Source: an uncultured Verrucomicrobiota bacterium (lineage in GTDB: Bacteria > Verrucomicrobiota > Kiritimatiellia > CAIKKV01). From it: a stretch of 64,000 bases of DNA. The notes beneath the pieces were generated by a model that searched no databases, was not told the DNA's origin, and was given only the letters and a program-made list of their open reading frames with translations. The first letter of the stretch is position 1; the number at the start of each line of letters is the position of its first letter. Made by a program: the position numbers and the translations under genes. This document shows, piece by piece, positions 5,213 through 63,986 of the stretch. The stretch is taken from contig CAYZVY010000001.1 in assembly GCA_964481675.1 (NCBI GenBank), positions 14,006 to 78,005 of the forward strand, read 5' to 3'.

Positions 5213-5451
5213 GTCGGGCGATTCCGGTCAGCACGGATGATGTCCAGGGACGACTTCGTGAAGCGGAGGTGTTTGGTCTTTTCCTGAATGACCTTAACCT
5301 GCGCCCGATAATCGCGGATCTTTTTCTCCTCTTCCTTGCGGGTGACATATTCCGCCAGGGCTTCGTGGACGGCGGCGTGTTTGGTCCGCTTGGACGAATA
5401 GTGCATGGCCTTGGAAATCAGGTCATCGTCCAATTCAATATTCGTTCTCAT
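5209..5451 (-). CDS. vapB: VapB-type antitoxin
   Basis: About 80 aa starting MRTNIELDDDLISKAM (typical VapB/ribbon N-terminus). Start chosen at the internal ATG at 5451. The longer track ORF begins in Arg-rich low-complexity sequence. Confidence 0.6.
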   Translation of the reverse strand: MRTNIELDDDLISKAMHYSSKRTKHAAVHEALAEYVTRKEEEKKIRDYRAQVKVIQEKTKHLRFTKSSLDIIRADRNRPT

Positions 5452-5547
5452 ACACCAAACTATACACCACTTGATGTGTACGCTCAAGCGATTTCGGAAC
5501 TGTTCTTTGGAATGCGGCGAAAGGGCGATCTTACGGCATGCAGAGTT

Positions 5548-5612
5548 GGTACAGCGGGACCTACGGGACCGCTGCGGGCGGCTCATAGCGGTCCCGTAGG
5601 TCCCGCTGTACC
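5548..5612. terminator. Perfect 26-bp inverted repeat (hairpin, 13-nt loop) downstream of murC-murB
   Basis: GGTACAGCGGGACCTACGGGACCGCT (5548-5573) is the exact reverse complement of 5587-5612. It sits 54 nt past the murC-murB stop on the minus strand and is not followed by a U-run. Confidence 0.4.
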
Positions 5613-5665
5613 CCGTTTCCCGTTACAGGTCGCGCAGGGCTTAAGTAAGCGCCATTCGGGACTCT

Positions 5666-50680: not shown

Positions 50681-52222
50681 ATGAACACCCACGCCGATGA
50701 CATCCTGGTCGAGTACTCGCTCTTCGATATCCGGCGGATCGTGAAAGGGCTGATGAGCCCCGGGGAAACCGGCGAGCACAAGCTCGCCGTGATGGCCGTG
50801 ACGCGCCTGTTCGGTCCGGTGACGGTCTCGCTGCTGATCTCCGGCCTGGTCCTGGGGGCGCTGCTGGCGCTGGTCAAGGCGCGGATCATCGACCGGGGCC
50901 CCGACCGCATCGCCGTCGACATCATCAACCCCGACACGATGAAAGCCGATGACCGGGCCGCGGTGGAGCGGGATATCGACTCGATGATCAGCCGGAGCGC
51001 GCGGCCCCAGGGTCCGGCGGCGTTCGAGCCGACGTCCCCCGCCGATCCGGGCATCGACTTCAAGGCGCCCGATCCCTTCATTCCCGAGGTGCGGCCGCTG
51101 CCTCAGGGGGCGCCGGATGCGATTCGCCTGAAGGGGCCGATCCTGGTGGGGCTGTTTGACAACCGGATCAACGGCGAGGTGCGCCAGAAGGCGATGGACG
51201 ATTTTGGCGCGGACAAGGATAACGACGCGCATGTGATGGCGGCGTTGCGGTGGCTGAAGAAGAAGCAGGATTCGGACGGTTCCTGGAAGACGGCGAGCGA
51301 TGTGGATCCCCTTGCCATGACGGGGCTGGCGGCCCTGGCGTTCCTGGCCCACGGGGAGACGCCGCAGCAGTCGAAGGAGTTCGGACCTGCGCTGGAGTCG
51401 GCGCTCCGCTACCTGATGTCGGTTCAGCAGGCGGACGGGCGGTTCAGCGCCAATTCCTACACGCACGCGATTGCCACCTATGCGCTGGCCGAGGCGTTTG
51501 CCCTGACGCGGATCATGGAGCTTCGCGAGCCGATGGAGAAGGGCGTGGCGTTCATCATCAAGGGTCAGCAGGATGAGGGGGGCTTCGATTACGGGTATGC
51601 CAAGGCGGCCCGGTTCGACACGTCGGTGGCGGGCTGGAACATCCAGGCGCTGAAGGCCGCCTATACGGCCGGCAGCGTGGCCCCCGGCTTGAAGGAGGCG
51701 GCCCAACGGTCGGTCCGTTTCCTCAAGACGCAGGCGTATGCGCAGAACGGGAGCGGGTTCGTCTACTCGGGCACGCCGGGGGTTCCGGCTCCCGGGGGCG
51801 GCCGCTGGTCCATGACGGGGGTGGGCACGCTGGGGCTGCAGATCCTGGGCCATGCGATGGACCCCGAGGCGCGGCAGGGGATCGCGTGCCTGGATCCGCT
51901 GGCGTGCGACTGGCCGGCCGCCCGGGAGGCGAAGCCCAGCGTCTATGGATGGTATTATGTCACCCAGGCCAAGTTCCACAAGGGCGGGAGCGTGTGGCAT
52001 GCCTGGAACAGCCAGTTCAAGAAGGCCTACATCGAGCGCCAGGTGATGGAGCCCGACGGCTGCGGGTACTGGGCGCAGGGGGATCATGGCGGCGCGGTGT
52101 ATGCCACCACCCTGGCGACCCTGACGCTGGAGGTGTATTACCGCTACCTGCCGACCTACAAGATTGCCGAGGTGGAGACCAGCGCCGCCGGGCGGGATGA
52201 CGTGAAAATCGAAGTGCTTTAA
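50681..52222 (+). CDS. Membrane-anchored prenyltransferase / squalene-cyclase-repeat (alpha-alpha toroid) protein
   Basis: N-terminal TM, then repeats with QxxDGSW-like motifs (KKKQDSDGSWK, SVQQADGRFS, GQQDEGGFDYG). Confidence 0.55.
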   Translation: MNTHADDILVEYSLFDIRRIVKGLMSPGETGEHKLAVMAVTRLFGPVTVSLLISGLVLGALLALVKARIIDRGPDRIAVDIINPDTMKADDRAAVERDIDSMISRSARPQGPAAFEPTSPADPGIDFKAPDPFIPEVRPLPQGAPDAIRLKGPILVGLFDNRINGEVRQKAMDDFGADKDNDAHVMAALRWLKKKQDSDGSWKTASDVDPLAMTGLAALAFLAHGETPQQSKEFGPALESALRYLMSVQQADGRFSANSYTHAIATYALAEAFALTRIMELREPMEKGVAFIIKGQQDEGGFDYGYAKAARFDTSVAGWNIQALKAAYTAGSVAPGLKEAAQRSVRFLKTQAYAQNGSGFVYSGTPGVPAPGGGRWSMTGVGTLGLQILGHAMDPEARQGIACLDPLACDWPAAREAKPSVYGWYYVTQAKFHKGGSVWHAWNSQFKKAYIERQVMEPDGCGYWAQGDHGGAVYATTLATLTLEVYYRYLPTYKIAEVETSAAGRDDVKIEVL

Positions 52223-52266
52223 TTATCAATTTGATCGGTTTTGATAATTCATGGATAGTGGTCTCC

Positions 52267-53052
52267 ATGAAAGACGACAACGGATTGTTCCGGGAATTGT
52301 TTGATTTATCCGGCCGCACGGCCCTGGTCTCGGGTGCCACCAAGGGGCTGGGGAAGGAATTCGCCCGCACCCTGGCGCGGGCCGGGGCGACGGTGGGGAT
52401 CTGCAGCCGGCACGGGGCGGAGGCGGAAGCCGTGGCCGCGGAGCTGGCGGCGGAGACGGGCCGGACGGTGGCCGGCATGGCCTGCGACGTGACGGCGGAG
52501 GCGGACGTGGCGCGCTGGGTGGCGGCCGCGTCCGAGCGGCTGGGGGAGCCCGACATCCTGGTGGCGAGCGCGGGCATCAACATCCGCAAGCCGACGGAAG
52601 AGTTGACCGGCGCGGATTTTGACAGCGTCATGGCGATCAACGTCAAGGGCGCGTACCTGTGCGCCCGGGCGGTGATTCCGGGCATGCGGCGGCGGCGGTT
52701 CGGGCGGATCGTGCTGCTGGGCTCGATGCTGTCGTTCATCTCCATTCCCGGGCGGGCGGCCTACGCGTCGAGCAAGACGGCGCTGCTGGGGCTGGCGCGC
52801 ACGCTGGCCCTGGAGACGGCGGCGGACGGCATCTGCGTGAACGCACTGTGCCCGGGGCCGTTCGAGACGCCCATGAACCTGCCGCTGCTGCAGGATCCGG
52901 AAAAGTACAAGGCGTTCATCGCCCGGCTGCCGATCGGGCGCTGGGCGCAGCCCGCCGAGGCGCGCGGCATCCTCCTCTACCTCTGCTCCCCCGCCTGCAG
53001 CTTCATGACCGGCTCGTCGGTGGTCATCGACGGCGGCTGGTCCGCGCAGTAG
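52267..53052 (+). CDS. SDR-family short-chain dehydrogenase/reductase
   Basis: TALVSGATKGLGKEFA (TGxxxGxG) and the catalytic YASSK (YxxxK). Confidence 0.8.
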   Translation: MKDDNGLFRELFDLSGRTALVSGATKGLGKEFARTLARAGATVGICSRHGAEAEAVAAELAAETGRTVAGMACDVTAEADVARWVAAASERLGEPDILVASAGINIRKPTEELTGADFDSVMAINVKGAYLCARAVIPGMRRRRFGRIVLLGSMLSFISIPGRAAYASSKTALLGLARTLALETAADGICVNALCPGPFETPMNLPLLQDPEKYKAFIARLPIGRWAQPAEARGILLYLCSPACSFMTGSSVVIDGGWSAQ

Positions 53053-53074
53053 GGGGCGGGTGGTTGGTGGACGG

Positions 53075-53140
53075 TGTGGACAGTGTGGACAGTGTGGACA
53101 GTGTGGACCTTGTTGACGGAGTTGACCTTGTTGACCTTTC
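53075..53140. repeat. Two adjacent 9-bp tandem repeat blocks upstream of dtxR-feoBA
   Basis: GTGTGGACA x4 followed by CTTGTTGAC / GGAGTTGAC / CTTGTTGAC. Each unit carries a TGGAC/TTGAC core. Confidence 0.45.
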
Positions 53141-53187
53141 CCTGAGCTTCTACTTGCTTCTGAAATGTCTATATGGTTAAATAATGT

Positions 53188-53664
53188 TTGATGAATAAAA
53201 CATTAAAGGGGTCGCGGCGGGTGACGCCGGCCATGCAGGACTGCCTGGAGGCCATTCTCCGGCTGGAGGCGAGCAAGGGCGCGGCCCGGGTGCGCGACCT
53301 GGCCGCGCTTCTGGGCGTGCACAAGTCCACCGTGACCGCCACGCTCAAGCACCTGGCCCGCGAGGGGCTCGTACGCTACAGCCCCTATGAGCTCGTGGGG
53401 CTGGAGCCCGGGGGCCGCGCCGTGGCCGAGCGGGTGAGCGGGGGCCACCAGATTTTCGCCCGCTTCCTCTCGGGGATTCTCCTGCTCGACCCGGAGGCCG
53501 CCGACGCCGACGCCTGCCGCCTGGAGCACGCCGCCGAGCCCGAGACGATCGAGCGCCTCCGCCTGTTCGCCCAGTTCCTGGCCGACCGCCCCCGGTCCAC
53601 CCGGCCGCTGACCCGGGCCTTTTCCGCCTATCTCAAGGCCCGCCGGGGGAAAGGGGCGCCATGA
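53188..53664 (+). CDS. DtxR/MntR-family metal-dependent transcriptional regulator
   Basis: N-terminal wHTH AMQDCLEAILRLEASKGAARVRDLAALLGVHKSTVTATLKHLAREGLV and a metal-binding/dimerisation domain. No SH3 tail. Confidence 0.75.
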   Translation: MMNKTLKGSRRVTPAMQDCLEAILRLEASKGAARVRDLAALLGVHKSTVTATLKHLAREGLVRYSPYELVGLEPGGRAVAERVSGGHQIFARFLSGILLLDPEAADADACRLEHAAEPETIERLRLFAQFLADRPRSTRPLTRAFSAYLKARRGKGAP

Positions 53665-55541
53665 GCGAGCTGATCACCCTGGCCCTGGCGGGCAATCCCA
53701 ACTGCGGGAAGACCACGCTGTTCAACCGCATGACTGGCGACTGCCGGCATGTCGGCAACTGGCCGGGCGTCACCGTGGAACGCGCCGAGGGCGCCTGCCG
53801 CCACCGGGAGCGGGACCTGTGGGTCACGGATCTGCCCGGCCTCTATTCGCTGGAGGCGCACACCCTGGATGAGCAGGTGACGCGCGATTTCCTTGACGGC
53901 GGGTCGGCCGCCGTCATCGTCAACGTCATCGACGCCACCAACCTCGAGCGCAGCCTCTACCTGACGGGGCAGCTGCTCCGGCTGGGGCGTCCCCTGGTGG
54001 TGGTGTTGAACATGATGGATCTGGCGGAGTCGCTGCACATCCGGATCGACGTGGAGGCGCTTGCCAGGCGCCTGGGCTGTCCGGTGCTGCCCGTGGCCGC
54101 CCAGCGCGACCGCCGCCTGGCCCCGCTTTTCGACGCCATTCTCGCCGTCGCCGCGGCCGGGGCGGCGCCGGTTCCCGACCGTCCTCCGCCGCGGAACGAG
54201 GAGGAGGGCTACGCGTTCGCCCGGGCGGCGGCCCGTGAGGCGGCTGACCGCAGCCGGGCGCCGGTCCGCCATTTTTCGGATGTCCTGGACCGGTTCGCGT
54301 TGAGCCGCTTCGTCGGCATTCCCTTTTTCCTGGCCGTGATGTACCTGGTGTTCCTGGTGACCGTCAGCGGGGCGCGGCCGGCGGTCAGCCTGATCGACAC
54401 CGTCTGCGGCCGCCTGTTCGTGGAGTGGCCCCGGCTCTGGCTGGAAGGGCTTCACGCGCCGGAGCTGCTGATCACGATCCTGGCGGACGGGGCCGGTGCG
54501 GGCCTTCGCGCCGTGGCGACGTTCATGCCTCCCATTTTCGGCATCTTCTTCTGCCTGGCCATCCTGGAGAATTCCGGCTACATGGCGCGGGGCGCCTTCG
54601 TGATGGACAAATTCCTGCGCAAGATCGGGCTTCCGGGGCGCGCCTTCCTGCCGCTGCTGGTGGGCTTCGGCTGCAACGTGCCGGCCATGTTCGCCACCCG
54701 TACGCTGAAGGAGAAGCGGGAGCGGCTGATCACGCTGCTCATCAATCCCTTCATGTCGTGCAGCGCCCGCCTGCCGGTGTATACCCTCTTCGCCGTGGCC
54801 TTCTTTCCCGCGCGGGGCAACCAGGTGGTGTTCGCCCTGTACCTGATCGGCATCCTGATGGCCATCCTGACCGGCCTGCTGCTCCAGAAGACCCTCCTGC
54901 GCGGGGAGCCGTCCTCCTATGTCATGGAGCTGCCGCCGTACCAGGTGCCCAGCCTGAAGGCGGTGTTCCGCCACGCCTGGGAAAACCTGAAGGGATTCGT
55001 GGTGCGGGGCGGCAAGGTGATTGTGCTGGCCGTGATGGCGCTGAGCCTGCTCAACACGCTGGGCAAGGACGGGAAGGCGGGCGAGTCGTGGCTCGAGAAG
55101 GCGGGCAAGGCTGTTACGCCCGTGTTCGGCCCCATGGGCATCCAGCGCGAGAACTGGCCGGCCACGGTCGGCCTGATCACGGGCGTGGTGGCCAAGGAGG
55201 CCGTGGTCGGCACCCTGGATGCGCTGTACGGGCAGATGGAGCCCGAGCTGCCCGCCGTTCACGAACCGGTGACGGGCGCCACCCCCCATGCCGAGCATGG
55301 CGACCGGCCGCTGGCGGCGGGCGGCGTGCGCCACGGGGTGATCGGCGCCATGCGGCACCATTTCGGGACGCCGGCCGCGGCCTTCGCCTATCTGCTCTTC
55401 GTGCTGCTGTATGTGCCCTGCATCGCCACGCTGGCGGCCCTGCGCCGGGAGGCGGGCTGGAAATGGACCCTTTTCTCCGTGGTGTACCAGACCGGGTTGG
55501 CATGGCTGACCGCCACCCTGTTCTATCAAGTGGCTTCCTAA
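53661..55541 (+). CDS. feoB: Ferrous iron transporter FeoB
   Basis: G-protein motifs LAGNPNCGKTTLFN (G1), DLPG (G3), NMMD (G4), then a polytopic membrane domain. ATGA overlap with dtxR. Confidence 0.85.
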   Translation: MSELITLALAGNPNCGKTTLFNRMTGDCRHVGNWPGVTVERAEGACRHRERDLWVTDLPGLYSLEAHTLDEQVTRDFLDGGSAAVIVNVIDATNLERSLYLTGQLLRLGRPLVVVLNMMDLAESLHIRIDVEALARRLGCPVLPVAAQRDRRLAPLFDAILAVAAAGAAPVPDRPPPRNEEEGYAFARAAAREAADRSRAPVRHFSDVLDRFALSRFVGIPFFLAVMYLVFLVTVSGARPAVSLIDTVCGRLFVEWPRLWLEGLHAPELLITILADGAGAGLRAVATFMPPIFGIFFCLAILENSGYMARGAFVMDKFLRKIGLPGRAFLPLLVGFGCNVPAMFATRTLKEKRERLITLLINPFMSCSARLPVYTLFAVAFFPARGNQVVFALYLIGILMAILTGLLLQKTLLRGEPSSYVMELPPYQVPSLKAVFRHAWENLKGFVVRGGKVIVLAVMALSLLNTLGKDGKAGESWLEKAGKAVTPVFGPMGIQRENWPATVGLITGVVAKEAVVGTLDALYGQMEPELPAVHEPVTGATPHAEHGDRPLAAGGVRHGVIGAMRHHFGTPAAAFAYLLFVLLYVPCIATLAALRREAGWKWTLFSVVYQTGLAWLTATLFYQVAS

Positions 55542-55553
55542 GGAGTAGATGGC

Positions 55554-55829
55554 ATGATCTTTTTTGCCCGCCATCGCCGCTGCAGCCCGCACCGCCCCGC
55601 TCCGGAGGTGACGCGGCTGGACGAGGGATTCGAGGACTGGGCGTATGTCATTGCCGCCAACCCCGACCGCCAGTCGCGCGAAATGGGATTCTTCCCCGGC
55701 ATGGAGGTGCGGATTCTGCGCAATGTGGAGGGGGAGCACGGACTGGTGGTGGCCCTGGGGTCAACCCGGTATGTGCTGGCGCGCCAGGCGGCGCGGGCGA
55801 TGAAAGTCAGTGATTCCTGCTCCGTCTGA
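55554..55829 (+). CDS. feoA: FeoA-family small protein
   Basis: 91 aa SH3-like FeoA pattern (GMEVRILRNVEGEHGLVVALGSTRYVLARQAARAM). Confidence 0.6.
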   Translation: MIFFARHRRCSPHRPAPEVTRLDEGFEDWAYVIAANPDRQSREMGFFPGMEVRILRNVEGEHGLVVALGSTRYVLARQAARAMKVSDSCSV

Positions 55830-55860
55830 TCCGACGGATCGGTCTGATCCGACGGATCAC
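55824..55860. repeat. Tandem duplicated 18-bp palindromic element at the convergent gene junction
   Basis: GTCTGATCCGACGGATCG GTCTGATCCGACGGATCA. Each copy contains GATCCG-a-CGGATC. Confidence 0.4.
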
Positions 55861-55870
55861 GGCTCGCCGG

Positions 55871-58174
55871 TTACTTCTCCCGGTACACGGCCACGGGGGC
55901 TAGCAGGCCGCCCGTGCCCAGTTCGTTGAAGAACGTGCGGGTGCAGAGCAGGGCCAGGTGGTTCACTTCGCCGGGCTTGACTGCGGCGGTGATGTCGAAG
56001 GAGAACGGCTCCGCGTAGCCTTCCCGGCTCCCGATTTCGCGGCCGTTGAAGAAGACCTTGACGGCGCCGTCGGTGCTGCCGACCCAGAGGAAAATCTTTT
56101 TCCCGTCCGCCGCCAGGGGCAGGGTTACGGGCGTGCGATACCAGACGCTCTTGAAGTAATTATGGAGCCCCAGGGTGGACCAGGTCTCGGTGCAGACGTC
56201 CGTCATCTTCCAGCCGCTGTCGTCGAAGCCGGGTTTGGCGAAGCCCGCCTTTTCGCCCGATCCGTCCGGATCCGCCAGCCACAGGAAGTGGCGCAGCGGG
56301 GGCCGGGTCATCAGTTCCGCCTCTTCCGCCACCCGCTGGGCGTCCTTGTAGGTCTTGTCGTAAAACGCCATCGCATAGGCTCCGCCGAGGGTGTTGGTGT
56401 TCCAGTTCACCGCCGTGAAGGTGGCGTAGTCCTTGTATTTGGCGGCGTCCGCCAGCAGCCGGGCGTGCCAGGCGTCGGCGCGGGTCATCAGGCCCGCCCA
56501 CCGGCCTTCGGCCTGGTCCTGCCGCAGCTTCATGAACAGCTCGAACAGGGAGAGCGACTCGCTGGCCAGCTCGACGCGGAATTTCTCGTCCGGCGTGGCG
56601 GCGGCCTTGCGGCCGACGTTCAGGAGGGTGCGGGCCTCGCGCAGCTTCGCCGGCGTCCAGCGCCGCAGGTGGCCCCAGCCGCAGCCGGAGAACTCGGGCG
56701 ACTCCACCCAGACCCGGTCCACGTAGTCCCAGTAGGCCGCCATTTCGGCGGCGGCCTGGCCGTAGAACCGCTCGTTGATTTCCCGGTAGATGGCGTCCGG
56801 CTTCTGCTTCGGATTCCAGGCCAGCCGGAGGGCCATGTATTGCGCGTGCATGAAGTACTCGAAGTTGGGCAGCGTTTCGGGCTGCCAGAACTGGCAGTTC
56901 CCGCGCTCCAGCGCGAAGGGCACGTCGTGTCCCCATTTCCGGAGCATGGGCTGCGGGCCCAGGGGCTCGGCCAGGTAGTAGCCGTAGAAGTAGTGGCTGG
57001 TCCGCTTCGCCTTTTTGCCCCAGCCCTCCACGATGGCCCGCAGCTCGGCGTTGCCCGGCACGCGGTCGTCGTTCATGGGATGCGACCGGCTGTAGGTGAT
57101 GGGCGCGATCTGGGGCACCACGCTGGGGTTCACCTTCTCGCGGACGGGGGGGCGCGTGTACTGGACATAGGCGAGCACGCCGAACAGGAGGTCGGGCTGC
57201 CTGGCGTTGACCCGTGCGGCGATCCGGTTGACGAACACCAGGAGGCGGTCGGTGATGGAGTTGGTCTGCACGGTGGTGTCGAAATCGCCGGCGTCGAGGG
57301 CCCGGTCGGCCGCGGACTCGTCGAACAGCGCGCCGTCGCCGGGCGAGAGGGAGACGGAGGGCTGCGGAGCGGCCCCGTTTTTCAGCAGGATGGTATCGGC
57401 GATGGCGTCGGCCAGGGGGCGGCTGCTCCATTTGAGGCGGCCGGGCATGGGGCGGCCGTCGGCATGCTCCGCCACCCAGTCGGGGTGGGCCGCGAGCTGC
57501 TCCTTGGACGGGTAGGTTTCCAGCGCGTGGCCGGCGGAGATCAGGAGCCCGCCGGTCCGGTTGCGGCGCTTGTAGGCGTCGTCGCCGTACCAGATGCCGC
57601 GGTAGGCGGTGAAGGGCGCCAGCGTGTCGTTGGCCTCGGTCACGGCCAGCGTGTCGAGGGTCGGGATCGTTTCGCCCCTGTCGCCCGGCATGAACCAGCG
57701 GCAGCCCAGGCGGTCGAGCAGCTCGTAGACGGCATAGCTGGAGGCGAGGGCGGATTCGCCGTAGAGGCCGATTCCCTTTTTGGGATGCACCACGTAGCGG
57801 AAGCCCTGGCGGTAGGGGGCTTTGATGCCGACCCGGCCGAACACGGGGAGGGCGCGGCTGCCGATGTAGATCGGGACCAGGCCGTCGGGCGGGGCGGCGT
57901 TGGTGGAGAGGGCGACGGGCGCGCCCGACATTTTTTTGAGGTAAAGGGCCAGGTCGGCGACCGAGTCGCGCAGCCGCCGGCGCTGGAGCTCCTCCTCGAG
58001 GGCGGGGTTGACCAGGTTGGCGGTGCTGTTGGAGGCGAGCACGGCGGCATCGACCAGGATGATGGCGCGGGGCTGTTTCGCCTCGGCCAGCGTGATGGCC
58101 GCGGGGGCGGCGGGCAGGCGGAGGGCGGCGAGGAGCAGGACCGCCGGAACCAGGAGCGGCAGGGATCGCGGCAT
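55871..58174 (-). CDS. Secreted DUF4838-like glycoside-hydrolase-family protein with C-terminal galactose-binding-like domain
   Basis: Signal peptide MPRSLPLLVPAVLLLAAL. Central TIM-barrel-like region. C-terminal GH2-type sugar-binding pattern DDSGWKMTDV...WYRTPVTLP...GKKIFLWVGSTDGAVKVFFNGREIG...PFSFDIT. Start at 58174 with GGAGAC RBS. Confidence 0.5.
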   Translation of the reverse strand: MPRSLPLLVPAVLLLAALRLPAAPAAITLAEAKQPRAIILVDAAVLASNSTANLVNPALEEELQRRRLRDSVADLALYLKKMSGAPVALSTNAAPPDGLVPIYIGSRALPVFGRVGIKAPYRQGFRYVVHPKKGIGLYGESALASSYAVYELLDRLGCRWFMPGDRGETIPTLDTLAVTEANDTLAPFTAYRGIWYGDDAYKRRNRTGGLLISAGHALETYPSKEQLAAHPDWVAEHADGRPMPGRLKWSSRPLADAIADTILLKNGAAPQPSVSLSPGDGALFDESAADRALDAGDFDTTVQTNSITDRLLVFVNRIAARVNARQPDLLFGVLAYVQYTRPPVREKVNPSVVPQIAPITYSRSHPMNDDRVPGNAELRAIVEGWGKKAKRTSHYFYGYYLAEPLGPQPMLRKWGHDVPFALERGNCQFWQPETLPNFEYFMHAQYMALRLAWNPKQKPDAIYREINERFYGQAAAEMAAYWDYVDRVWVESPEFSGCGWGHLRRWTPAKLREARTLLNVGRKAAATPDEKFRVELASESLSLFELFMKLRQDQAEGRWAGLMTRADAWHARLLADAAKYKDYATFTAVNWNTNTLGGAYAMAFYDKTYKDAQRVAEEAELMTRPPLRHFLWLADPDGSGEKAGFAKPGFDDSGWKMTDVCTETWSTLGLHNYFKSVWYRTPVTLPLAADGKKIFLWVGSTDGAVKVFFNGREIGSREGYAEPFSFDITAAVKPGEVNHLALLCTRTFFNELGTGGLLAPVAVYREK

Positions 58175-58187
58175 GGGGAGTCTCCCG

Positions 58188-59663
58188 TTAGGCCCGCTGG
58201 CGGAGGGCGCCGAGGGCTTGGGCAATGGTGGACAGGCCGATGAAGAAGAAGCCGGCGGCGTAGATGGCGATGAAGGGGCTGACGGCGAACTTGCCGGCCA
58301 GGATATACATGGCCAGGGTGTAGGCGCAGTAGGCGCCGAGCAGCACTTCGACGACGCCCGCCCAGGGCATCTTCATCTTGTAGGCCTTGATTTCGCGGCC
58401 GCCGCGCTTCGGGGTCCGCACGAATTCGCTTTCGCGGCCGATGACGGCCTCGAGGATGGCGCGCGAGTTGGACAGCGCCAGGCCCACGCCCACCACCATC
58501 AGCAGCGGCATCAGCAGGATCCGCCGCCCCCAGTGCGGGGTGGCCTTGAACTGGCCCACGGTATACATCGTGCTGGGGGCCAGGATGGACAGGATCAGGG
58601 GGATGGACAGGAGGCCGTAGACGAGGGGATTGGCCTTGAATTCCAGGGTCACGCTCAGGATGGGGAGGGCGAGCAGCGAGAGGAGCAGCATCAGCGGGTG
58701 CACCATGTAGCCCGTCATGTGCAGGAAGGCCTGGACCCGCTTGAAGCGCGACACCTTGGCCTGGCGCAGCTGGGGGAACAGCTTGATGACCGTCTGGATG
58801 GAGCCCTTGGCCCAGCGGAACTGCTGGCTGCGGAACGCGTTCACATCCTCCGGCAGTTCGGCTTCCACCACCAGGTCGGGCAGGTACAGGCCTTCCCAGC
58901 CCTTGAACTGGACGCGGTAGGACAGGTCGAGGTCCTCGGTCAGCGTGTCCCAGGACCAGCCGCCGCCGTCGAGGATGGCGTCGCGCCGCCAGACGCCCGC
59001 CGTGCCGTTGAAGTTCAGGAACAGGCCGCTGCCGCTGCGGGCGGGCTGCTCGACCAGGAAATGGCCGTCGATGCCGATCGCCTGCGCGATGGTCAGCAGG
59101 GAGCGGGTGCGGTTCAGGTGGCCCCAGCGCGCCTGGGCGAACCCGAGCTTCGGGTTGCCGCGGAAGTAGGGGACGATCCGGCGCAGGAAGTCGCGGGGCG
59201 GCACGAAGTCGGCGTCGAACACGGCCACGAGGCTGCCGCGGGCCTTGGCCAGCCCCTCGGCCAGGGCGCCGGCCTTGAATCCGAATCGATTGGATCGGCG
59301 GACAATCTGGATGTCATGGCCCTGGGCGGTCAGTTCGGCGGCCACGCGGTCGACGACGCCGATGGTTTCGTCGTTGGAATCGTCCAGCACCTGGATTTCA
59401 TGGCGGCCGGCGGGATAGTCGATGGCACAGGCCGCGCGCAGGACGCGCTCCGCCACGTTCACTTCGTTGTAGATGGCGATCTGGGTGGTCACCACCGGGA
59501 GCGTTTCTTCCGGCAGGGCTTCGGTGTCATGCCGGGCGTTTTCCGCGCGGGTCCAGCCTCGGCGGGCCAGGTACAGCATGATGTAGCAATTCAAGCCATA
59601 CACCATCATGCCGACATTGGCCGCGGCATAGAGAACGGAAAGCAGGCATATCGCGATAAACAT
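58188..59663 (-). CDS. Processive family-2 glycosyltransferase (cellulose-synthase-like, QxxRW)
   Basis: N-terminal TM. GT-A motifs: D in VLDDSND, DxD in AVFDADF, TED in LTEDLDLSYR, and FRSQQFRWAKG (QxxRW). 5-6 C-terminal TM helices. Confidence 0.75.
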   Translation of the reverse strand: MFIAICLLSVLYAAANVGMMVYGLNCYIMLYLARRGWTRAENARHDTEALPEETLPVVTTQIAIYNEVNVAERVLRAACAIDYPAGRHEIQVLDDSNDETIGVVDRVAAELTAQGHDIQIVRRSNRFGFKAGALAEGLAKARGSLVAVFDADFVPPRDFLRRIVPYFRGNPKLGFAQARWGHLNRTRSLLTIAQAIGIDGHFLVEQPARSGSGLFLNFNGTAGVWRRDAILDGGGWSWDTLTEDLDLSYRVQFKGWEGLYLPDLVVEAELPEDVNAFRSQQFRWAKGSIQTVIKLFPQLRQAKVSRFKRVQAFLHMTGYMVHPLMLLLSLLALPILSVTLEFKANPLVYGLLSIPLILSILAPSTMYTVGQFKATPHWGRRILLMPLLMVVGVGLALSNSRAILEAVIGRESEFVRTPKRGGREIKAYKMKMPWAGVVEVLLGAYCAYTLAMYILAGKFAVSPFIAIYAAGFFFIGLSTIAQALGALRQRA

Positions 59664-59783
59664 TCGAACTCCCGGTGATAACGATGGCGCCTATTCTGCC
59701 ATTCGATCCCCTTTGGGTCAATAGTGGGGATACAGGTGCTTTTCACAGGCAAAGAAGGGGAAAAAACAGGAGCCAGTCGGAGG

Positions 59784-61118
59784 CTAGGGCGTCTTTGGCG
59801 CGAGCAGGTAATCGCCCAGGGCCGCGAAAAAGGCGGTTTCCTGCCGGGGGTCCAGTGTTTCGAGCGCGCCGGCGGAGGGGATCTTCCGCGCGGCCAGGCC
59901 TTCCTCGCTGTGGAGGAAAATGGCGGCCTTCCGTCCGGCCGTCGGCCATTGGGACATGCCCCAGACGATGCCGATGCATAATCCGCAGGTGGCGCCGGCC
60001 AGCAGGATGAGGCGTTTCCGGTTGAATTCCATCCGGTTGGGAAGGGCCATGTTGATCAGGCCCAGGGTGACGGTCAGGGTCAGCGCCAGACCGGCCAGAT
60101 GGCGGATGCCGGTCAGGCGGGCCGGGATCTCGGCGACCAGGGGATTGCCGGTGATCCGGACCAGCCCCTCCAGGCAGGGGGTGTAGCCCAGCGCGAGGGT
60201 GACCGTTTCGGTGAGGAACAGGAAGGCCGCCAGGCTGGCCGTGGCGCGCCAGAGGGGGGCCAGGACAACCTTGGGCCCCGCCAGCAGGAACAGGATGACC
60301 AGTCCGGCCGGCAGCCAGACGGTGTAGGGGAGAAAGGGACCGGATCCGAGGCGGGTCAGCACCAGGGCCAGGCCGGCCGTGAGGATGGCGCCGATGATCC
60401 GGATGCGGGTATTGTTCGCCCGGTCGCACAGGGTGATGGCGAACGCGCCGAGGGTGCAGGGCACGGCCACGGCGGCAAATCCCGCATGCCAGGCGAAGGC
60501 TAGCAGCAGGCTGGCGCCGGCCAGCCAGTTCCGGTCGCGGGCGAAGCAGGCGAAAGCCGCCAGGATCAGCAGGATGGCCGGCCCGCGGGGGGCGTAGGCG
60601 AGGAACGCCATGCCGTGCCCGGCCGCCGGTGCGAAGAAGGGCACCGACAGCCCGAGGCCGCCCAGCAGCAGGCAGGACGCTGCGAGAATCCCGTCAACGG
60701 GATGGGCGGCGGTGATCGCCAGCAGCCATCCGAGGGCGAGCAGGAACAGGATCAGGAAGGATAGTTTCACGGGGATGGAGAAGGAGTGCGGCGGCTGGTC
60801 TCCAGGCCAGGCCGCGCAGACGGCGCGAAGAATCCCGCCGTAGACAGGATAGACGGCAAAGCTGTGCAACCGGTTGCGCGTGCGGAATTGCCTGTCGGCC
60901 GGAAGCTTGTTGAGCCAGAGGTGCTCGATCCCGTCGAGAGGCGCCGTCTTGTCGGCCTGGGCAAACAGGCGGGCGGCGCTGTAATAGTGCACCGCCTTGT
61001 CATCCAGATTGCCTTCCGAATAGCTGGATAACCATAAAACCAGAATCTGCACGGCCGCCAGGAGCAGCAGCCACAGGGTCCATCCGCTTCGCGATTCCGG
61101 GCTTGTGCTTGTCATCAC
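59784..61118 (-). CDS. Polytopic membrane protein of unknown function (possible GT-C-like)
   Basis: 444 aa, more than 10 hydrophobic helices. First loop NLDDKAVHYYSAARLF resembles the acidic loop-1 of GT-C enzymes (weak). Confidence 0.4.
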   Translation of the reverse strand: MMTSTSPESRSGWTLWLLLLAAVQILVLWLSSYSEGNLDDKAVHYYSAARLFAQADKTAPLDGIEHLWLNKLPADRQFRTRNRLHSFAVYPVYGGILRAVCAAWPGDQPPHSFSIPVKLSFLILFLLALGWLLAITAAHPVDGILAASCLLLGGLGLSVPFFAPAAGHGMAFLAYAPRGPAILLILAAFACFARDRNWLAGASLLLAFAWHAGFAAVAVPCTLGAFAITLCDRANNTRIRIIGAILTAGLALVLTRLGSGPFLPYTVWLPAGLVILFLLAGPKVVLAPLWRATASLAAFLFLTETVTLALGYTPCLEGLVRITGNPLVAEIPARLTGIRHLAGLALTLTVTLGLINMALPNRMEFNRKRLILLAGATCGLCIGIVWGMSQWPTAGRKAAIFLHSEEGLAARKIPSAGALETLDPRQETAFFAALGDYLLAPKTP

Positions 61119-61217
61119 CCTATTATGATATCAGGTAGGGAATCGCCTGCAAAGTCTTTATGTGAAATTTACAGATACAAAACTGCTCGAATCCGGTGGG
61201 ATCTTGAGCATGGGGGG

Positions 61218-61985
61218 TTAATACTTGCAACTGACGCCCACAACCAGCCGCAGGTCGTAGGCGATGATGTCGTCGGGCGCCCGGCTCTGGTAGCGATATT
61301 CCAGGGCGGTTCGAAGGTTCAGGGTCCTGGTGATGACGGTGGTGAGTTCCGCAGTGGCATTCACCAGGAAATTGTCAAGCTGGAGGGCGTGCGGCAGCAG
61401 TTCCAGCGTCTGGATCACCTTCGGGCCGCCGTCCCATTCCTGCTCGTAGCGCTCGCCCATGCGGATGGCGGGATAATTGTCGGAGCCGTCGCCGGTTTCC
61501 TCGAACACCCAGGAGAGCCCGGCTTCGATTGACCATTCCAGCTTGGGCCCTTTTTGCAGGTAGATGCCCGCGCCTCCGCCTTCCGAGACCCGGTAGTGGA
61601 GGTCCGCCACGGCGTCGCTCTGGATCCGGGCGTCCACGAAGGTGTAGGTCTGGTCCTTTTCCAAGGGCCGCCGCACATAGCCAAACAGGTCCCAGCGCTT
61701 GGCCGTGGTGGTGTTGACCGAATCCACCTCGCTCTGGCCATAGGCGTAGGACCCGCCGGCGCGGACCCGCTCGAAATACGGGGTGACGCCCGATGTTTCG
61801 ATTTTGGAGCCGATCTCACCCTTGTTCGCGTTTCCCCGGGTGAACAGGATGTCCAGGGCGAACGTGGTCTCGAACCCGTTGGTGGGCGCTGTCGGGAGCG
61901 CCCGAAGCGGGGAGGGCAGGCCGAGGGCCAGCAGGATTCCAGGCAGAATGAAAAGAGGCAGCCGCATAGACCGGAAAGGTATCAT
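61218..61985 (-). CDS. DUF481-like outer-membrane beta-barrel protein
   Basis: Signal peptide MRLPLFILPGILLALGLPSPLRA. Alternating amphipathic beta-strands. C-terminal aromatic residue (…GVSCKY). 255 aa, matching DUF481/YdiY size. Confidence 0.5.
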   Translation of the reverse strand: MIPFRSMRLPLFILPGILLALGLPSPLRALPTAPTNGFETTFALDILFTRGNANKGEIGSKIETSGVTPYFERVRAGGSYAYGQSEVDSVNTTTAKRWDLFGYVRRPLEKDQTYTFVDARIQSDAVADLHYRVSEGGGAGIYLQKGPKLEWSIEAGLSWVFEETGDGSDNYPAIRMGERYEQEWDGGPKVIQTLELLPHALQLDNFLVNATAELTTVITRTLNLRTALEYRYQSRAPDDIIAYDLRLVVGVSCKY

Positions 61986-62225
61986 GCGGCCGGGCGGGGC
62001 AGAAGGAAAAAACAGTAATCAGTGACCAGTGATCAGTAATCAGTCACGGCCCCCGATGTCATTATTTTAAGGACGTCACGCCAAAGGAGTCAAGATATAA
62101 TAACACTATCATTTAAAAATAAGATATGTTCCTATGTTTGTGATATATTTAAGTCAGACGGGAACAACTTTTATTGAAAATGGGGGAGAAACGGCGATTT
62201 TTTTAGTGTCGCCAAGTGAGGGACG

Positions 62226-63986
62226 TTACCATCCGCCACCGCCGCCCCCGCCGCCGCCGCCGCCGGAGGAGCCCCCGCCGCCGCCGCCGGAACTGGATCC
62301 CGGGGCCGTGGATGAGGAGGAGATGGCCGACGACAGTGATGATCCAAGGGATCCGGCCAGGGCGCCCGCCGTCAGACCTGTCAGCCCCGCTCCCGCATAC
62401 CAGGCGGGCGAGTAGCCGTCTGTTCCCTTCGCGGCGGTGTCCAGCACGTCCTTGAACTGCTCGGACCACCGCTGCTCAACCCCCAGCGCCAGCGCATACG
62501 GCAGGAACATCTCGAACAGTTCGGGCGTGCGATGGGGCGGGTTTTCCAGGTTCAGCCGGTCCTTTTCGGCCACCGACAGGTACAACCTGAAGCCTTCGAT
62601 TTCGTCCATGGTCTTGCGGCCGATGAGGGTGGGTGCCTTGAGCAGATGGAAGAAAATACCGTTTACCAGCGCCCCCAGCCCGAAGACCAGCGGGACCCAG
62701 AAGGAGGTGGCATACCCGAACATGCCCAGCCCGGCGATCTCGCCGATCACAAAGGGAAGGGAAAACAGGGTCATCGGGATGGCCTGGACCCAGTGACCCG
62801 TCCGCCAGAGCGTGAAGACGCTCGAGAGCAGGGCGGTGACGCCCACCGTCCAGATGGAAAGCCACACGAGCATGAAGAGGGCGACCGGCAGTTCCCGGCT
62901 GTTCAGCAGGGAAACCGCGCAGGGAACCAGGGAAAACAGCAGCCCCGGCACCCAGTAGCGGATGTTGCTCAGGAAATACTTTTTCTCCAGTTGCACCGCC
63001 AGGTCGCTTTTCAGGATCTTGATGGCGGAGCTGATCGCGGTATGGTTGGCCTGCTCCAGTTCAAGCCGGGCGCGGGTGCCCAGAAGACTCTGAGCCAGGT
63101 CCTTTTCGTCCTCGGTCAGCCCCGGGAGTCCCAGTTGCTTCCGCATCAGGGTATATTTCTTGTCCGTGCAATGAATGGTCAGCACGCCTTTAACCGCCAG
63201 GCTGATCACATTGGCGGCAAAGGCCTTCTGGTCATATCCCATTCGCATGAGGAACCGCACCGCCGCCGGCGAAAAGCCCCTGGGCGGCGCGTAACGCGGA
63301 ATGATCACCCCTTTTTCCGGATCCTTTCCCACGCGCGACCAGGCGACCACATAATAGACCAGTACCAGCGCGAGCCCGACCAGCGCCAGAGCCAGGCCGA
63401 TGTTGTCGCGCACCAGGCGCAGACGGGCCTGCCACGGATCCGGCGTTGCGACATACCCTTTGGGCCAGGCGACCACGATCGTGAGCCCTTCGTAGGCGTC
63501 CAGCGGGCGGGTGGTTTCGAAACAGGCCGTTCCCGGTCCGGGCTGCGAGGCTGTGTAGTCCCGGCCCTTGGCGCCTTTCGGTCCCGTGTAGGCGTCCGTC
63601 GACTGCACGGGGCATCCCGGCGGCAGGAGGATGGTGGCCGTGACCTTGTCGAGAGGGAATATCCACCCGTTGCCGGTCACGTTCCAGTACAGCTCATCGT
63701 GGTTTTCGAAAAAGCCCAGCTGGCGGTCGGTGCGGTAGGTCAGCTCAAAGGTGTATTCGCCGGGGTCCAGCGTGGTTTGCGCGGATCCGATGTAAACGCG
63801 CTGGCCGTTGTCCTTGCCTTCCAGGTGATACTCCTCGGGGCGGCCGTCCCGGCGGACGCTGAGCACGTCAAACCCCGTCCGCTGTCTCAGGCCCCAGCCG
63901 CTGCGGTAGAGCTGGGGAAAATCCCGGTAGATGCCGTGCTTGATCTGGTCGCCCGTCGCGCGCACCCGGAGGGTTTCGGTGACCAC
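62226..63986 (-). CDS. DUF2207-family membrane protein with C-terminal poly-Gly/Ser tail (N-terminus may extend beyond the window)
   Basis: Extracytoplasmic N-domain with [20 protein letters not shown], multiple TM helices, tail [30 protein letters not shown]. Confidence 0.55.

What the first reader, a model, noticed from the sequence alone, without database searches (positions are those of the whole stretch)
55871..63986. Candidate non-canonical synthase-dependent exopolysaccharide locus (DUF2207 - DUF481 barrel - GT-C-like - QxxRW GT2 - DUF4838 hydrolase)
Five minus-strand genes lie head-to-tail with short gaps (14, 120, 100 and 240 bp). A processive GT2 synthase carrying D, DxD, TED and QxxRW motifs is flanked by a polytopic membrane protein and a predicted outer-membrane beta-barrel upstream, and by a secreted glycoside-hydrolase-like protein with a carbohydrate-binding domain downstream. 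Known synthase-dependent systems (Bcs, Pga, Pel, alginate) pair a GT2 synthase with an OM porin and a polymer-trimming hydrolase. Here those roles would be filled by DUF481, DUF4838 and an unknown 444-aa membrane protein, none of which are canonical parts. The 240-bp AT-rich leader at 61986-62225 carries CAGTRAYCAGT palindromic repeats and looks like the control region.
Basis: partly seen in the sequence, partly recalled or inferred. Interest (0 to 1): 0.7.

Follow-up and report, generated by a model that had tools for sequence, protein, structure and literature searches.

The report
Glycan synthase, GT-C partner, small barrel

Summary

The GT2 belongs to a highly conserved cross-phylum orthologue group (48-74% identity). 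In 40 of 80 species it is followed by a different GT-C protein, a GT87/MptA-like domain fused to a short GT2. In Fibrobacterota it stands alone. DUF4838 is no longer of unknown function. It is the catalytic domain of the GH163 and GH185 hexosaminidases.

Best reading: an inner-membrane BcsA-like synthase, a periplasm-facing GT-C modifier and a 12-stranded outer-membrane barrel build an unknown envelope glycan. This is a new variant of synthase-type systems. The product, its processivity and export through DUF481 are all inferred. The AT-rich leader and its heptamer array are real, but the array is a direct tandem repeat, not a palindrome, and relatives lack it.

The parts
58188..59663 (-). Core gene. 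A 491-aa membrane-embedded GT2 of the BcsA/PgaC (cellulose-synthase-like) type. It has one N-terminal and about five C-terminal hydrophobic segments, the D, DxD, TED and QQFRW motifs, and an FVRTPK loop at 414-419.
   Evidence: Pfam and NCBIfam. PDB sequence matches to BcsA at 8e-25 for the single sequence and 5e-32 for the profile; the C-terminal half matches only BcsA, CesA and CslF6. Invariant motifs. Hydropathy. Orthologues at 48-74% identity in many phyla.
59784..61118 (-). Partner gene. A 444-aa polytopic membrane protein of a small family with no Pfam or NCBIfam model. The predicted fold is GT-C glycosyltransferase, with a conserved D38-D39-K40-AVHYY motif just after the first transmembrane helix.
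61218..61985 (-). DUF481 outer-membrane beta-barrel protein (255 aa, or 249 aa from the second Met). It has a signal peptide, 12 predicted strands and a C-terminal aromatic residue. In two relatives its gene overlaps the partner gene by 4 nt.
61986..62225 (-). AT-rich intergenic leader upstream of DUF481. It holds a sigma-70-like site, TTGACT-18-TAAAAT, at 62093-62064, and a direct tandem heptamer array (CAGTRAY, 4.6 copies) at 62013-62044. This is probably the promoter region of the module. The role of the heptamers is unknown.
   Evidence: GC 0.42 against 0.67. Promoter scan. Tandem repeat. No stable RNA fold, z = 0.59. No Rfam family. Not conserved in L083 or L003.
55871..58174 (-). Local neighbour and at most a species-specific accessory. 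A secreted 767-aa protein with a DUF4838 (GH163/GH185-type hexosaminidase-like) catalytic domain and a C-terminal GH2_N-like beta-sandwich. It starts 13 nt after the GT2 stop, so it is probably co-transcribed here.
   Evidence: Pfam. PDB matches only to the C-terminal sugar-binding sandwich. GH163/GH185 assignment of DUF4838 (PMC10570127). Absent after the GT2 in L083, L097, L098, L003, the P0008 contig and 80 GTDB loci.

Best explanation
The functional unit is a three-gene, lineage-specific module: DUF481 barrel, then GT-C-fold membrane protein, then BcsA-like GT2. It is built around a GT2 that is conserved across phyla.

Proposed mechanism:
1. The GT2 uses a cytoplasmic nucleotide-sugar to make a beta-linked glycan at the inner membrane and passes it outward through its own C-terminal helices. 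This is inferred from family resemblance.
2. The GT-C protein has its conserved Asp-Asp motif in the first periplasmic loop. It acts on the periplasmic face and transfers sugar from a polyprenyl-phosphate donor onto that glycan, or onto its anchor. This is inferred from the fold and from the contexts of distant homologues.
3. The 12-stranded DUF481 barrel lets the product reach the outer membrane or anchors it there. This is the weakest step and rests only on gene linkage.

DUF2207 is an unrelated neighbour. The DUF4838 hexosaminidase-like enzyme is a neighbour specific to this genome. It may be co-transcribed but is not a conserved part of the module.

In other phyla the same GT2 does this job with a different GT-C partner, a GT87/MptA-like domain fused to a short GT2 that probably makes the lipid-linked donor. 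There is no outer-membrane component there. The product is therefore more likely a general envelope or periplasmic glycan than a classical secreted biofilm EPS.
For: Shown:
- Family and motif assignments.
- GT2 similarity to BcsA through TED, QxxRW, the interface helix and the first C-terminal transmembrane helices. The C-terminal half matches only BcsA, CesA and CslF6 in the PDB.
- Hydropathy pattern of one N-terminal and about five C-terminal segments, with FVRTPK between them. The published gating-loop signature is FxVTxK (PMC10374906).
- D39 is invariant, and D38, K40 and the AVHYY stretch are near-invariant, right after the first helix across a 20-sequence family alignment.
- Distant homologues lie beside a short GT2, an SMR/EamA-like small membrane protein and a PIG-V-like GT-C, which is a Gtr/Arn-type lipid-linked-sugar module.
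- DUF481-GT-C-GT2 recurs in four lineages with 74-100% GT2 identity, with 4-nt DUF481/GT-C overlaps in two. GT-C-GT2 recurs in a fifth.
- The GT2 orthologue is directly followed by the GT87+GT2 fusion in 40 of 80 species loci, including 30 of the 55 with enough downstream sequence. In a Desulfococcus isolate genome (NCBI assembly GCA_900167235.1) the two genes overlap by 4 nt and form a two-gene island.
Against: - No experiment or structure of the GT2 shows a channel or processivity.
- QxxRW also occurs in GT2/GT21 lipid glycosyltransferases (my own knowledge).
- FVRTPK matches only three of the four fixed gating-loop residues, and HMMER did not align it.
- Foldseek found no significant PDB match for the GT-C model, and a profile comparison with the GT87 partner was negative.
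- Two GT2 genes at 75-76% identity lack both partners, and one at 79% lacks DUF481. The partners are therefore dispensable or can be encoded elsewhere.
- No donor-synthase gene (short GT2) lies in the 64-kb window.
- A 12-stranded barrel is smaller than the known 16-18-stranded polysaccharide exporters (my own knowledge).
- Promoter-like sites occur in both internal gaps, so co-transcription is unproven.
Confidence: 0.45

Rival explanations
1. All five genes form one synthase-dependent exopolysaccharide secretion locus. DUF481 is the export porin, DUF4838 is the polymer-trimming hydrolase, DUF2207 is an accessory membrane part, and the heptamer leader is its control region.
For: The genes are co-directional with short gaps, including 13 nt between the GT2 and DUF4838. 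DUF4838 is secreted and is a GH20-related hexosaminidase type. It could trim a HexNAc polymer, and PgaC is the GT2's second-best NCBIfam match.
Against: DUF4838 is absent after the GT2 in every relative with downstream sequence. L083 has two MITE-like repeats there instead. In L083 DUF2207 is separated from DUF481 by a CBS/NuoE/NuoF/Fe-hydrogenase cluster, and it is absent elsewhere. A 240-nt AT-rich promoter-like gap separates DUF2207 from DUF481. The heptamers are not conserved. No TPR, PilZ or c-di-GMP component was found.
Confidence: 0.08
2. The GT2 is not a polymer synthase but a membrane glycolipid synthase, comparable to monoglucosyl-diacylglycerol or glucosylceramide synthases. The GT-C protein then extends or modifies the flipped glycolipid, and DUF481 handles an outer-membrane lipid.
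For: Conservation across phyla is very high, at 48-74% identity with 67% mean column identity. In Fibrobacterota and some PVC genomes the gene stands alone among housekeeping genes such as RecG, DnaK, YchF, UvrA and URO-D. There is a weak Pfam Glyco_transf_21 hit at 1.9e-7. Cyanobacterial MgdA has a similar size and an N- plus C-terminal transmembrane layout (PMC3916417).
Against: The best matches at family and PDB level are BcsA (125 bits to TIGR03030) and PgaC. The GT21 hit is 31 bits against 90 bits for Glyco_tranf_2_3. The C-terminal membrane half aligns only with cellulose-synthase-family chains. No cyanobacterial MgdA-like genome is among the 80 best species hits.
Confidence: 0.17
3. The product is a periplasmic or inner-membrane-anchored glycan, like an osmoregulated periplasmic glucan or a lipoglycan, made by the GT2 plus a GT-C enzyme. 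DUF481 is not an exporter. It is a linked outer-membrane protein with some other role, or it is linked only to the GT-C gene.
For: In other phyla the module has two genes and no outer-membrane component. The fused partner resembles mycobacterial MptA/B lipomannan mannosyltransferases plus a polyprenyl-phosphate-sugar synthase-like GT2. One relative has GT-C-GT2 without DUF481. The barrel has only 12 strands.
Against: DUF481 is linked to the GT-C gene in four of the five lineages that have the GT-C partner, with 4-nt overlaps in two. That tight coupling argues for a shared pathway.
Confidence: 0.2
4. The adjacency is fortuitous. The GT2 works alone, and the GT-C protein and DUF481 form an unrelated pair, for example modifying LPS or another envelope component.
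For: The GT2 occurs alone in L098, L099 and many Fibrobacterota. Distant homologues of the GT-C protein lie in unrelated contexts.
Against: Two unrelated GT-C families are each found immediately beside this same GT2 orthologue group in different phyla. One is in 40 of 80 loci, and the other is in five of seven Kiritimatiellia-like lineages. This is hard to explain by chance.
Confidence: 0.1

Closest known systems
Bacterial cellulose synthase BcsA (Bcs system)
   Same: GT-A catalytic domain with D, DxD, TED and QxxRW. The sequence aligns from the catalytic core through the interface helix into the following transmembrane helices; BcsA is the best PDB match at 5e-32. A loop resembling the FxVTxK gating loop lies between C-terminal hydrophobic segments.
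   Different: Only one N-terminal transmembrane helix, where BcsA has four. No PilZ domain, BcsB, BcsZ or TPR-porin BcsC nearby. Scores are far below the NCBIfam equivalog cutoffs, at 125 against 699 bits. The product is unknown.
PgaABCD, NfrAB and other synthase-dependent EPS systems
   Same: A membrane GT2 synthase encoded beside an outer-membrane beta-barrel. PgaC is the second-best NCBIfam hit at 8.6e-30. NfrB/NfrA is another minimal synthase-plus-outer-membrane-protein pair (PMC8669469, seen).
   Different: No c-di-GMP-binding part, no TPR scaffold, and no conserved deacetylase or hydrolase. The barrel has about 12 strands (DUF481), not 16-18. The outer-membrane component is missing in most lineages that carry the same GT2.
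Three-component periplasmic glycosylation (GtrA/GtrB/GtrC, ArnC/ArnEF/ArnT, CsbB/GtcA/YfhO)
   Same: A GT-C-fold enzyme acts outside the cytoplasmic membrane with a lipid-linked sugar. Distant homologues of the 444-aa protein lie beside a short GT2 and an SMR/EamA-like small membrane protein. The partner found in other phyla is a GT-C fused to a short GT2.
   Different: Here the adjacent GT2 is a large BcsA-like enzyme with QxxRW, not a GtrB/ArnC-type polyprenyl-phosphate glycosyltransferase. No flippase or short GT2 lies in the window.
Mycobacterial lipomannan machinery (Ppm1 plus MptA/MptB) and GT87 enzymes
   Different: There is no detectable sequence relationship between the 444-aa protein and GT87. 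The organisms are Gram-negative, and no lipomannan pathway context is present.
Plant CslA/CslC hemicellulose backbone synthases (a lead from memory only)
   Same: Similar size and layout. The motifs FNGTAG-WR, TxEDxDL and QQxRW resemble what I recall of CslA sequences. Plants also combine a backbone synthase with separate side-chain transferases.
   Different: Not tested here, because no CslA sequence was available to the tools. The PDB chains CesA and CslF6 match only weakly, at about 1e-5.
GH163 / GH185 (DUF4838) hexosaminidases
   Same: The downstream protein carries a DUF4838 domain at 1.5e-30 plus a carbohydrate-binding-type beta-sandwich, like BT1035.
   Different: Subfamily and catalytic residues were not determined. 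It is not conserved beside the GT2, so it is probably a catabolic enzyme of a glycan-degrading organism rather than part of a synthase machine.

Membership tests
Membrane-embedded processive GT2 synthases (BcsA/CesA/PgaC type) | GT-A domain with D, DxD, (T)ED and QxxRW motifs | tested here: met
   D94-D95, D150xD152, T242-E243-D244 and Q280QFRW284 are invariant in 14 cross-phylum sequences. Pfam and NCBIfam hits.
Membrane-embedded processive GT2 synthases (BcsA/CesA/PgaC type) | Transmembrane conduit formed by helices flanking the catalytic domain, with amphipathic interface helices | tested here: inconclusive
   Hydropathy shows one N-terminal and about five C-terminal segments. HMMER aligns the post-QxxRW helix and the next transmembrane helices to BcsA, CesA and CslF6.
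Membrane-embedded processive GT2 synthases (BcsA/CesA/PgaC type) | Gating loop signature FxVTxK | tested here: inconclusive
   The invariant F414-V-R416-T417-P418-K419 matches F, T and K but not V. The signature is as quoted in PMC10374906. HMMER did not align the motif.
Membrane-embedded processive GT2 synthases (BcsA/CesA/PgaC type) | Makes and translocates a polymer | not testable with these tools
   Needs biochemistry.
Bcs cellulose secretion system | BcsB partner, PilZ c-di-GMP domain, BcsC TPR-porin, BcsZ glucanase | tested here: not met
   The GT2 has no PilZ hit, and no Bcs family hit appears on any neighbour. The NCBIfam CelA score is 125 bits against a cutoff of 699.
Pga PNAG system | PgaC equivalog plus PgaD, PgaB deacetylase/hydrolase and PgaA TPR-porin | tested here: not met
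   The PgaC_IcaA score is 104 bits against a cutoff of 422. No PgaA, PgaB or PgaD-like neighbours.
Synthase-dependent EPS secretion (general definition) | Conserved co-occurrence of synthase, outer-membrane porin and polymer-modifying or trimming enzyme | tested here: not met
   The hydrolase is present in one of six relatives. The barrel is present in four of seven related lineages and in none of 79 other species loci.
GT-C fold glycosyltransferases (444-aa protein) | GT-C transmembrane fold | tested here: met
GT-C fold glycosyltransferases (444-aa protein) | Conserved acidic residue(s) in the first extracytoplasmic loop | tested here: met
   D39 is invariant and D38 near-invariant, immediately after helix 1 (residues 6-33 in the model), across 20 family members at 20-49% identity to the window protein.
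GT-C fold glycosyltransferases (444-aa protein) | Uses a polyprenyl-phosphate-linked sugar donor | not testable with these tools
   Indirect only. Distant homologues lie next to a short GT2 and an SMR/EamA-like protein. No such genes are in the window.
GT87 / MptA-B family (is the 444-aa protein a member?) | Sequence or profile similarity to GT87 | tested here: not met
   No Pfam hit. hhalign against the GT87 domain of the cross-phylum partner gives probability 0.07%.
DUF481 outer-membrane beta-barrel (TCDB 1.B.75) | Pfam DUF481 match above the gathering score, signal peptide, beta-barrel | tested here: met
DUF481 outer-membrane beta-barrel (TCDB 1.B.75) | Acts as a polysaccharide export pore | not testable with these tools
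   No function has been shown for any DUF481 member in the literature searched.
GH163/GH185 (DUF4838 glycoside hydrolases) | DUF4838 catalytic domain | tested here: met
   PF16126 at 1.5e-30, covering positions 4-324 of 325. Family definition from PMC10570127.
GH163/GH185 (DUF4838 glycoside hydrolases) | Catalytic residues and subfamily (endo-GlcNAcase or 6-sulfo-GlcNAcase) | not tested
   No reference sequences for BT1035 or Sp_0475 were available. The PDB holds no DUF4838 chain detectable by sequence.

The most novel reading that the evidence does not exclude
The BcsA-like GT2 defines an undescribed, cross-phylum envelope-glycan pathway. It occurs in Kiritimatiellia, Victivallales/Lentisphaerales, Opitutales, Planctomycetes, Desulfobacterales, Nitrosomonas and Fibrobacterota. 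In this pathway a processive synthase exports a backbone, and a GT-C enzyme decorates or anchors it in the periplasm. This would be a bacterial counterpart of the 'backbone synthase plus side-chain transferase' logic. The GT-C partner would have been recruited at least twice independently. One recruitment is the GT87+GT2 fusion. The other, in Kiritimatiellia, is a new GT-C family with no Pfam or NCBIfam model, coupled to a DUF481 barrel, which would give DUF481 its first functional context.
Probability: 0.25. Interest if true: 0.7.

Novelty: new variant of a known kind. Interest (0 to 1): 0.42.

Why it matters
If the module works as proposed, three things follow:
- A processive GT2 synthase would be paired functionally with a GT-C enzyme. 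I found no described synthase-dependent system that includes this pairing.
- DUF481 outer-membrane barrels, a large family with no known role, would gain a testable function.
- An orphan GT-C family would be defined.

The cross-phylum two-gene version also occurs in a Desulfococcus isolate genome (NCBI assembly GCA_900167235.1), where the idea could be tested experimentally if the strain is in culture.

The practical lesson for the scan is narrower. Only three of the five genes belong together. The hydrolase is a known GH family and is probably catabolic. Nothing yet shows that a polymer is made or exported.

Tried and rejected
- Profile comparison (hhalign) of the 444-aa family with the GT87 domain of the cross-phylum partner gave no homology.
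- A Foldseek search of the PDB with the 444-aa model gave only noise, with E above 0.09 and TM below 0.2. The afdb50 library was unavailable.
- Riboswitch or RNA structure in the leader was rejected. The fold z-score is 0.59, and Rfam gave only a chance sR36 match at 20 bits against a gathering score of 55.
- The idea that the heptamers are a conserved operator was rejected. L083 has different hexamer arrays and L003 has none.
- A search of the window for a short polyprenyl-phosphate-sugar synthase GT2 or a GT87 gene found none.
- tblastn of the GT2 against plasmids, to find an annotated characterised relative, returned only generic 'glycosyltransferase' names.
- Literature searches found nothing that characterises this GT2 group. 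They covered a bacterial CslA-like family, MgdA relatives, DUF481 function, GT87+GT2 modules and Kiritimatiellales EPS.
- Contexts of distant homologues of the 444-aa protein, checked for a GT2 or DUF481 link, showed none. The contexts are diverse.
- The DUF481 structure has low confidence (pLDDT 50.7). I used it only for strand count and fold class.

Full report
**1. What is in the sequence**

Five minus-strand ORFs lie head to tail at 55871-63986. With the start sites that public gene calls also use, the gaps are 13, 120, 99 and 240 nt.
- DUF4838 (1.5e-30) with a C-terminal GH2_N-like sugar-binding sandwich (1.1e-5, below Pfam's gathering score).
- A GT2 (Glyco_tranf_2_3, 3.7e-25).
- No family for the 444-aa membrane protein.
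- DUF481 (5.6e-23).
- DUF2207 N and C domains.

The DUF2207 gene is cut by the window end. No stop precedes 63986, and the Pfam match begins at profile position 19.

Downstream, the locus ends at a convergent FeoA/FeoB/DtxR-like operon.

The GT2 motifs D94-D95, D150xD152, T242-E-D244 and Q280QFRW284 are present. They are invariant in an alignment of 14 orthologues from several phyla.

The 240-nt leader has 42% GC against 67% for the window. It carries a sigma-70-like site. It also holds a 4.6-copy tandem heptamer, CAGTRAY, at 62013-62044, which is unique in the window. The copies are direct repeats, not palindromes, apart from an imperfect palindrome centred on TGATCA.

**2. Organism**

The GT2, the 444-aa protein and DUF481 are 100% identical to proteins on JGI metagenome contigs and on a 78-kb NCBI contig. 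The nearest named relative is a Kiritimatiellia MAG (locus L003), with 74% GT2 identity.

**3. Is the five-gene locus conserved? No; a three-gene core is**

I compared seven related lineages with 74-100% GT2 identity.

| Lineage | GT2 identity | Arrangement |
|---|---|---|
| Window | 100% | DUF2207, DUF481, GT-C, GT2, DUF4838 |
| L083/L084 | 86% | DUF2207, then CBS, NuoE-like, NuoF-like and Fe-hydrogenase genes, then DUF481, GT-C, GT2, then two copies of a 127-nt MITE-like repeat; no DUF4838 |
| L097 | 79% | GT-C, GT2 only |
| L099 | 76% | GT2 with no partner upstream; the contig ends just after it |
| P0008 contig | 75% | DUF481, GT-C, GT2, then 180-aa and 288-aa proteins with no Pfam hit |
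| L098 | 75% | GT2 alone |
| L003 | 74% | DUF481, GT-C, GT2, then two secreted proteins of unknown family |

In L003 and the P0008 contig, DUF481 and the GT-C gene overlap by 4 nt. In summary:
- GT-C-GT2 recurs in 5 of 7 lineages.
- DUF481-GT-C-GT2 recurs in 4 of 7.
- DUF4838 follows the GT2 in 1 of the 6 with downstream sequence.
- DUF2207 is adjacent only in the window.

**4. The GT2 is a cross-phylum orthologue with a different usual partner**

The protein search returned 8000 hits at E of 1e-20 or better. The top non-Kiritimatiellia hits, at 56-64% identity, come from Lentisphaerae, Verrucomicrobiota and Desulfobacterales.

A scan of one genome per GTDB species gave 80 loci at 48-74% identity. 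They come from Victivallales, Lentisphaerales, Planctomycetaceae, Opitutales, Chthoniobacterales, Desulfobacterales, Nitrosomonas, Fibrobacterota and others.

Only L003 carries DUF481 and the 444-aa protein. None carries DUF4838 or DUF2207 (HMM check).

In 40 of the 80 loci the GT2 is followed directly, on the same strand, by a protein of about 660-720 aa. This holds for 30 of the 55 loci with at least 2.2 kb downstream. The N-terminal membrane domain of that protein hits Pfam GT87 and MptA_B_family, which are GT-C enzymes. Its C-terminal domain is a short GT2 related to TIGR04283, with weaker hits to polyprenyl- and dolichyl-phosphate sugar transferase models.

In a Desulfococcus isolate genome the two genes overlap by 4 nt. 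They form an island between hydrogenase-maturation genes and TRAP-transporter genes.

In Fibrobacterota and a few PVC genomes the GT2 stands alone among housekeeping genes.

No outer-membrane or hydrolase gene accompanies the GT2 outside Kiritimatiellia.

**5. What the GT2 is like**

- Best NCBIfam matches are CelA/BcsA (2.9e-36) and PgaC (8.6e-30). All are far below the equivalog cutoffs.
- Best PDB matches are BcsA chains, at 8e-25 for the single sequence and 5e-32 for the profile.
- The C-terminal half alone matches only BcsA, CesA and CslF6. The alignment runs through TED, QxxRW, the following helix and the next transmembrane helices.
- Hydropathy gives one N-terminal and about five C-terminal hydrophobic segments.
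- An invariant FVRTPK at 414-419 lies between C-terminal segments. It resembles the FxVTxK gating loop quoted in PMC10374906 but matches only three of the four fixed residues. HMMER did not align it.
- The Glyco_transf_21 (lipid GT) hit is weak, at 31 bits.

Overall this points to a membrane-embedded synthase of the BcsA/PgaC/Csl kind. Processivity and a channel are inferred, not shown. From memory, the FNGTAG-WR, TxEDxDL and QQxRW stretches resemble plant CslA. I could not test this.

**6. The 444-aa protein is a GT-C-fold enzyme of a small orphan family**

- It has no Pfam or NCBIfam hit.
- A word-indexed search found 11 homologues.
- An exhaustive HMMER search of 1.84 billion representatives found only 62 clusters.
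- The AF2 model (pLDDT 73, pTM 0.77) has about 11 transmembrane helices. A helical loop follows helix 1.
- Foldseek gave nothing significant. This is a genuine caveat.
- D39 is invariant, and D38, K40 and AVHYY are near-invariant, directly after helix 1. GT-C enzymes carry their catalytic acidic residues at this position (established knowledge).
- Distant homologues (about 25% identity; L091, L093, L094) lie within PIG-V-like GT-C, SMR/EamA-like 122-aa protein, short 226-aa GT2, homologue, epimerase, DUF2304, GT4, GT4. That is a typical lipid-linked-sugar glycosylation module.
- Other distant homologues stand in unrelated contexts.
- There is no profile similarity to the GT87 partner.

So two unrelated GT-C families sit beside the same GT2 orthologue in different lineages.

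**7. DUF481**

The Pfam hit is well above the cutoff. TCDB lists the family as a putative 12-stranded barrel (PMC4827864). The sequence has an N-terminal signal-like leader and ends in ...SCKY; relatives end in F.

The barrel is supported. A pore or export role is not testable here. The literature I could search gives no function for any member.

**8. DUF4838 and DUF2207**

DUF4838 is the catalytic domain of GH163 (BT1035, an endo-beta-N-acetylglucosaminidase) and of GH185 (Sp_0475, a 6-sulfo-GlcNAcase). It is GH20-related and uses substrate-assisted catalysis (PMC10570127).

The protein here is secreted and has a carbohydrate-binding-type sandwich. It is not conserved beside the GT2, so it is most simply a catabolic enzyme. 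The 13-nt gap suggests it is co-transcribed in this genome. It could only trim the product if the product contains HexNAc.

Synteny excludes DUF2207 from the unit.

**9. The leader**

I found no Rfam family and no RNA fold better than shuffled sequence. In L083 the equivalent region holds hexamer (CGATTA-like) arrays in two orientations. L003 has no such repeats. The region is a plausible promoter. The heptamers are real but of unknown significance.

**10. Verdict**

There is a synthase-type GT2 with a GT-C partner and an outer-membrane barrel, but as a three-gene, lineage-specific and not universally retained module. It is not a five-gene secretion locus.

Best mechanism (confidence about 0.45):
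1. The GT2 makes and translocates a beta-glycan.
2. The GT-C enzyme modifies or anchors it in the periplasm, using a lipid-linked sugar.
3. DUF481 provides passage or anchorage at the outer membrane.

Novelty: a new variant of a known kind. Interest is moderate. The recurrent GT2 plus GT-C pairing across phyla is the most interesting point and is directly testable.

Noticed in passing
L005, L010, L015, L031, L035, L045, L096 and about 33 further loci (for example L096:8001-11587): A two-gene module conserved across phyla. The BcsA-like GT2 is followed directly, often with a 4-nt overlap, by a 660-720-aa fusion of a GT87/MptA-like GT-C domain and a short TIGR04283-like GT2. I found no description of it in the literature searched.
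   Followed up: partly
L005:6579-9908, also L010, L023, L034, L040, L041: Upstream of the GT2 in Victivallales and Desulfobacterales there is often a DUF547 protein and a fusion of about 680-820 aa. The fusion joins a YpdA/thioredoxin-reductase-like flavoprotein to a NapH-like polyferredoxin membrane domain. Any link to the glycan module is unknown.
   Followed up: partly
L083:1663-7607: In the closest relative (86% GT2 identity), a CBS-domain gene plus NuoE-like, NuoF-like and [FeFe]-hydrogenase genes lie between DUF2207 and DUF481. The window has only a 240-nt gap there, so this is an insertion or deletion breakpoint.
   Followed up: partly
L083:11519-11798: Two 98%-identical copies of a 127-nt element with perfect 22-nt terminal inverted repeats (GGCACGGGTCTCCTGACCCGTG) lie directly after the GT2 gene. 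The element looks like a MITE. It is absent from the window.
   Followed up: yes
L083:7620-7725: Upstream of the DUF481 homologue, hexamer arrays (TAATCG / CGATTA types) occur in opposite orientations around a 30-nt spacer. They sit at the position where the window has its heptamer array. They could be a terminator hairpin of the hydrogenase operon or a regulatory site.
   Followed up: no
window 55824-55858: A perfect 18-nt tandem duplication (GTCTGATCCGACGGATCG, 1.9 copies) lies across the FeoA-like stop codon and the 41-nt gap between the convergent FeoA-like and DUF4838 genes.
   Followed up: no
window 62233-62289: A (CCG)19 run encodes the C-terminal poly-glycine tail ([19 protein letters not shown]) of the DUF2207 protein.
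   Followed up: no
L003:11540-13220; P0008 contig genes at 5441-7067 (no DNA held): In two Kiritimatiellia relatives the three-gene module is followed by two small proteins with no Pfam family (193 and 352 aa; 180 and 288 aa). The L003 pair have signal-peptide-like N-termini. They may be further lineage-specific parts. They have no homologue in the window.
   Followed up: partly
window 50681-55829: The neighbouring genes on the plus strand are a 513-aa protein with faint squalene-hopene-cyclase/TED-like repeats, an SDR, a DtxR-family iron regulator, FeoB and a FeoA-like protein. The last three form an iron-uptake operon convergent with the locus.
   Followed up: no
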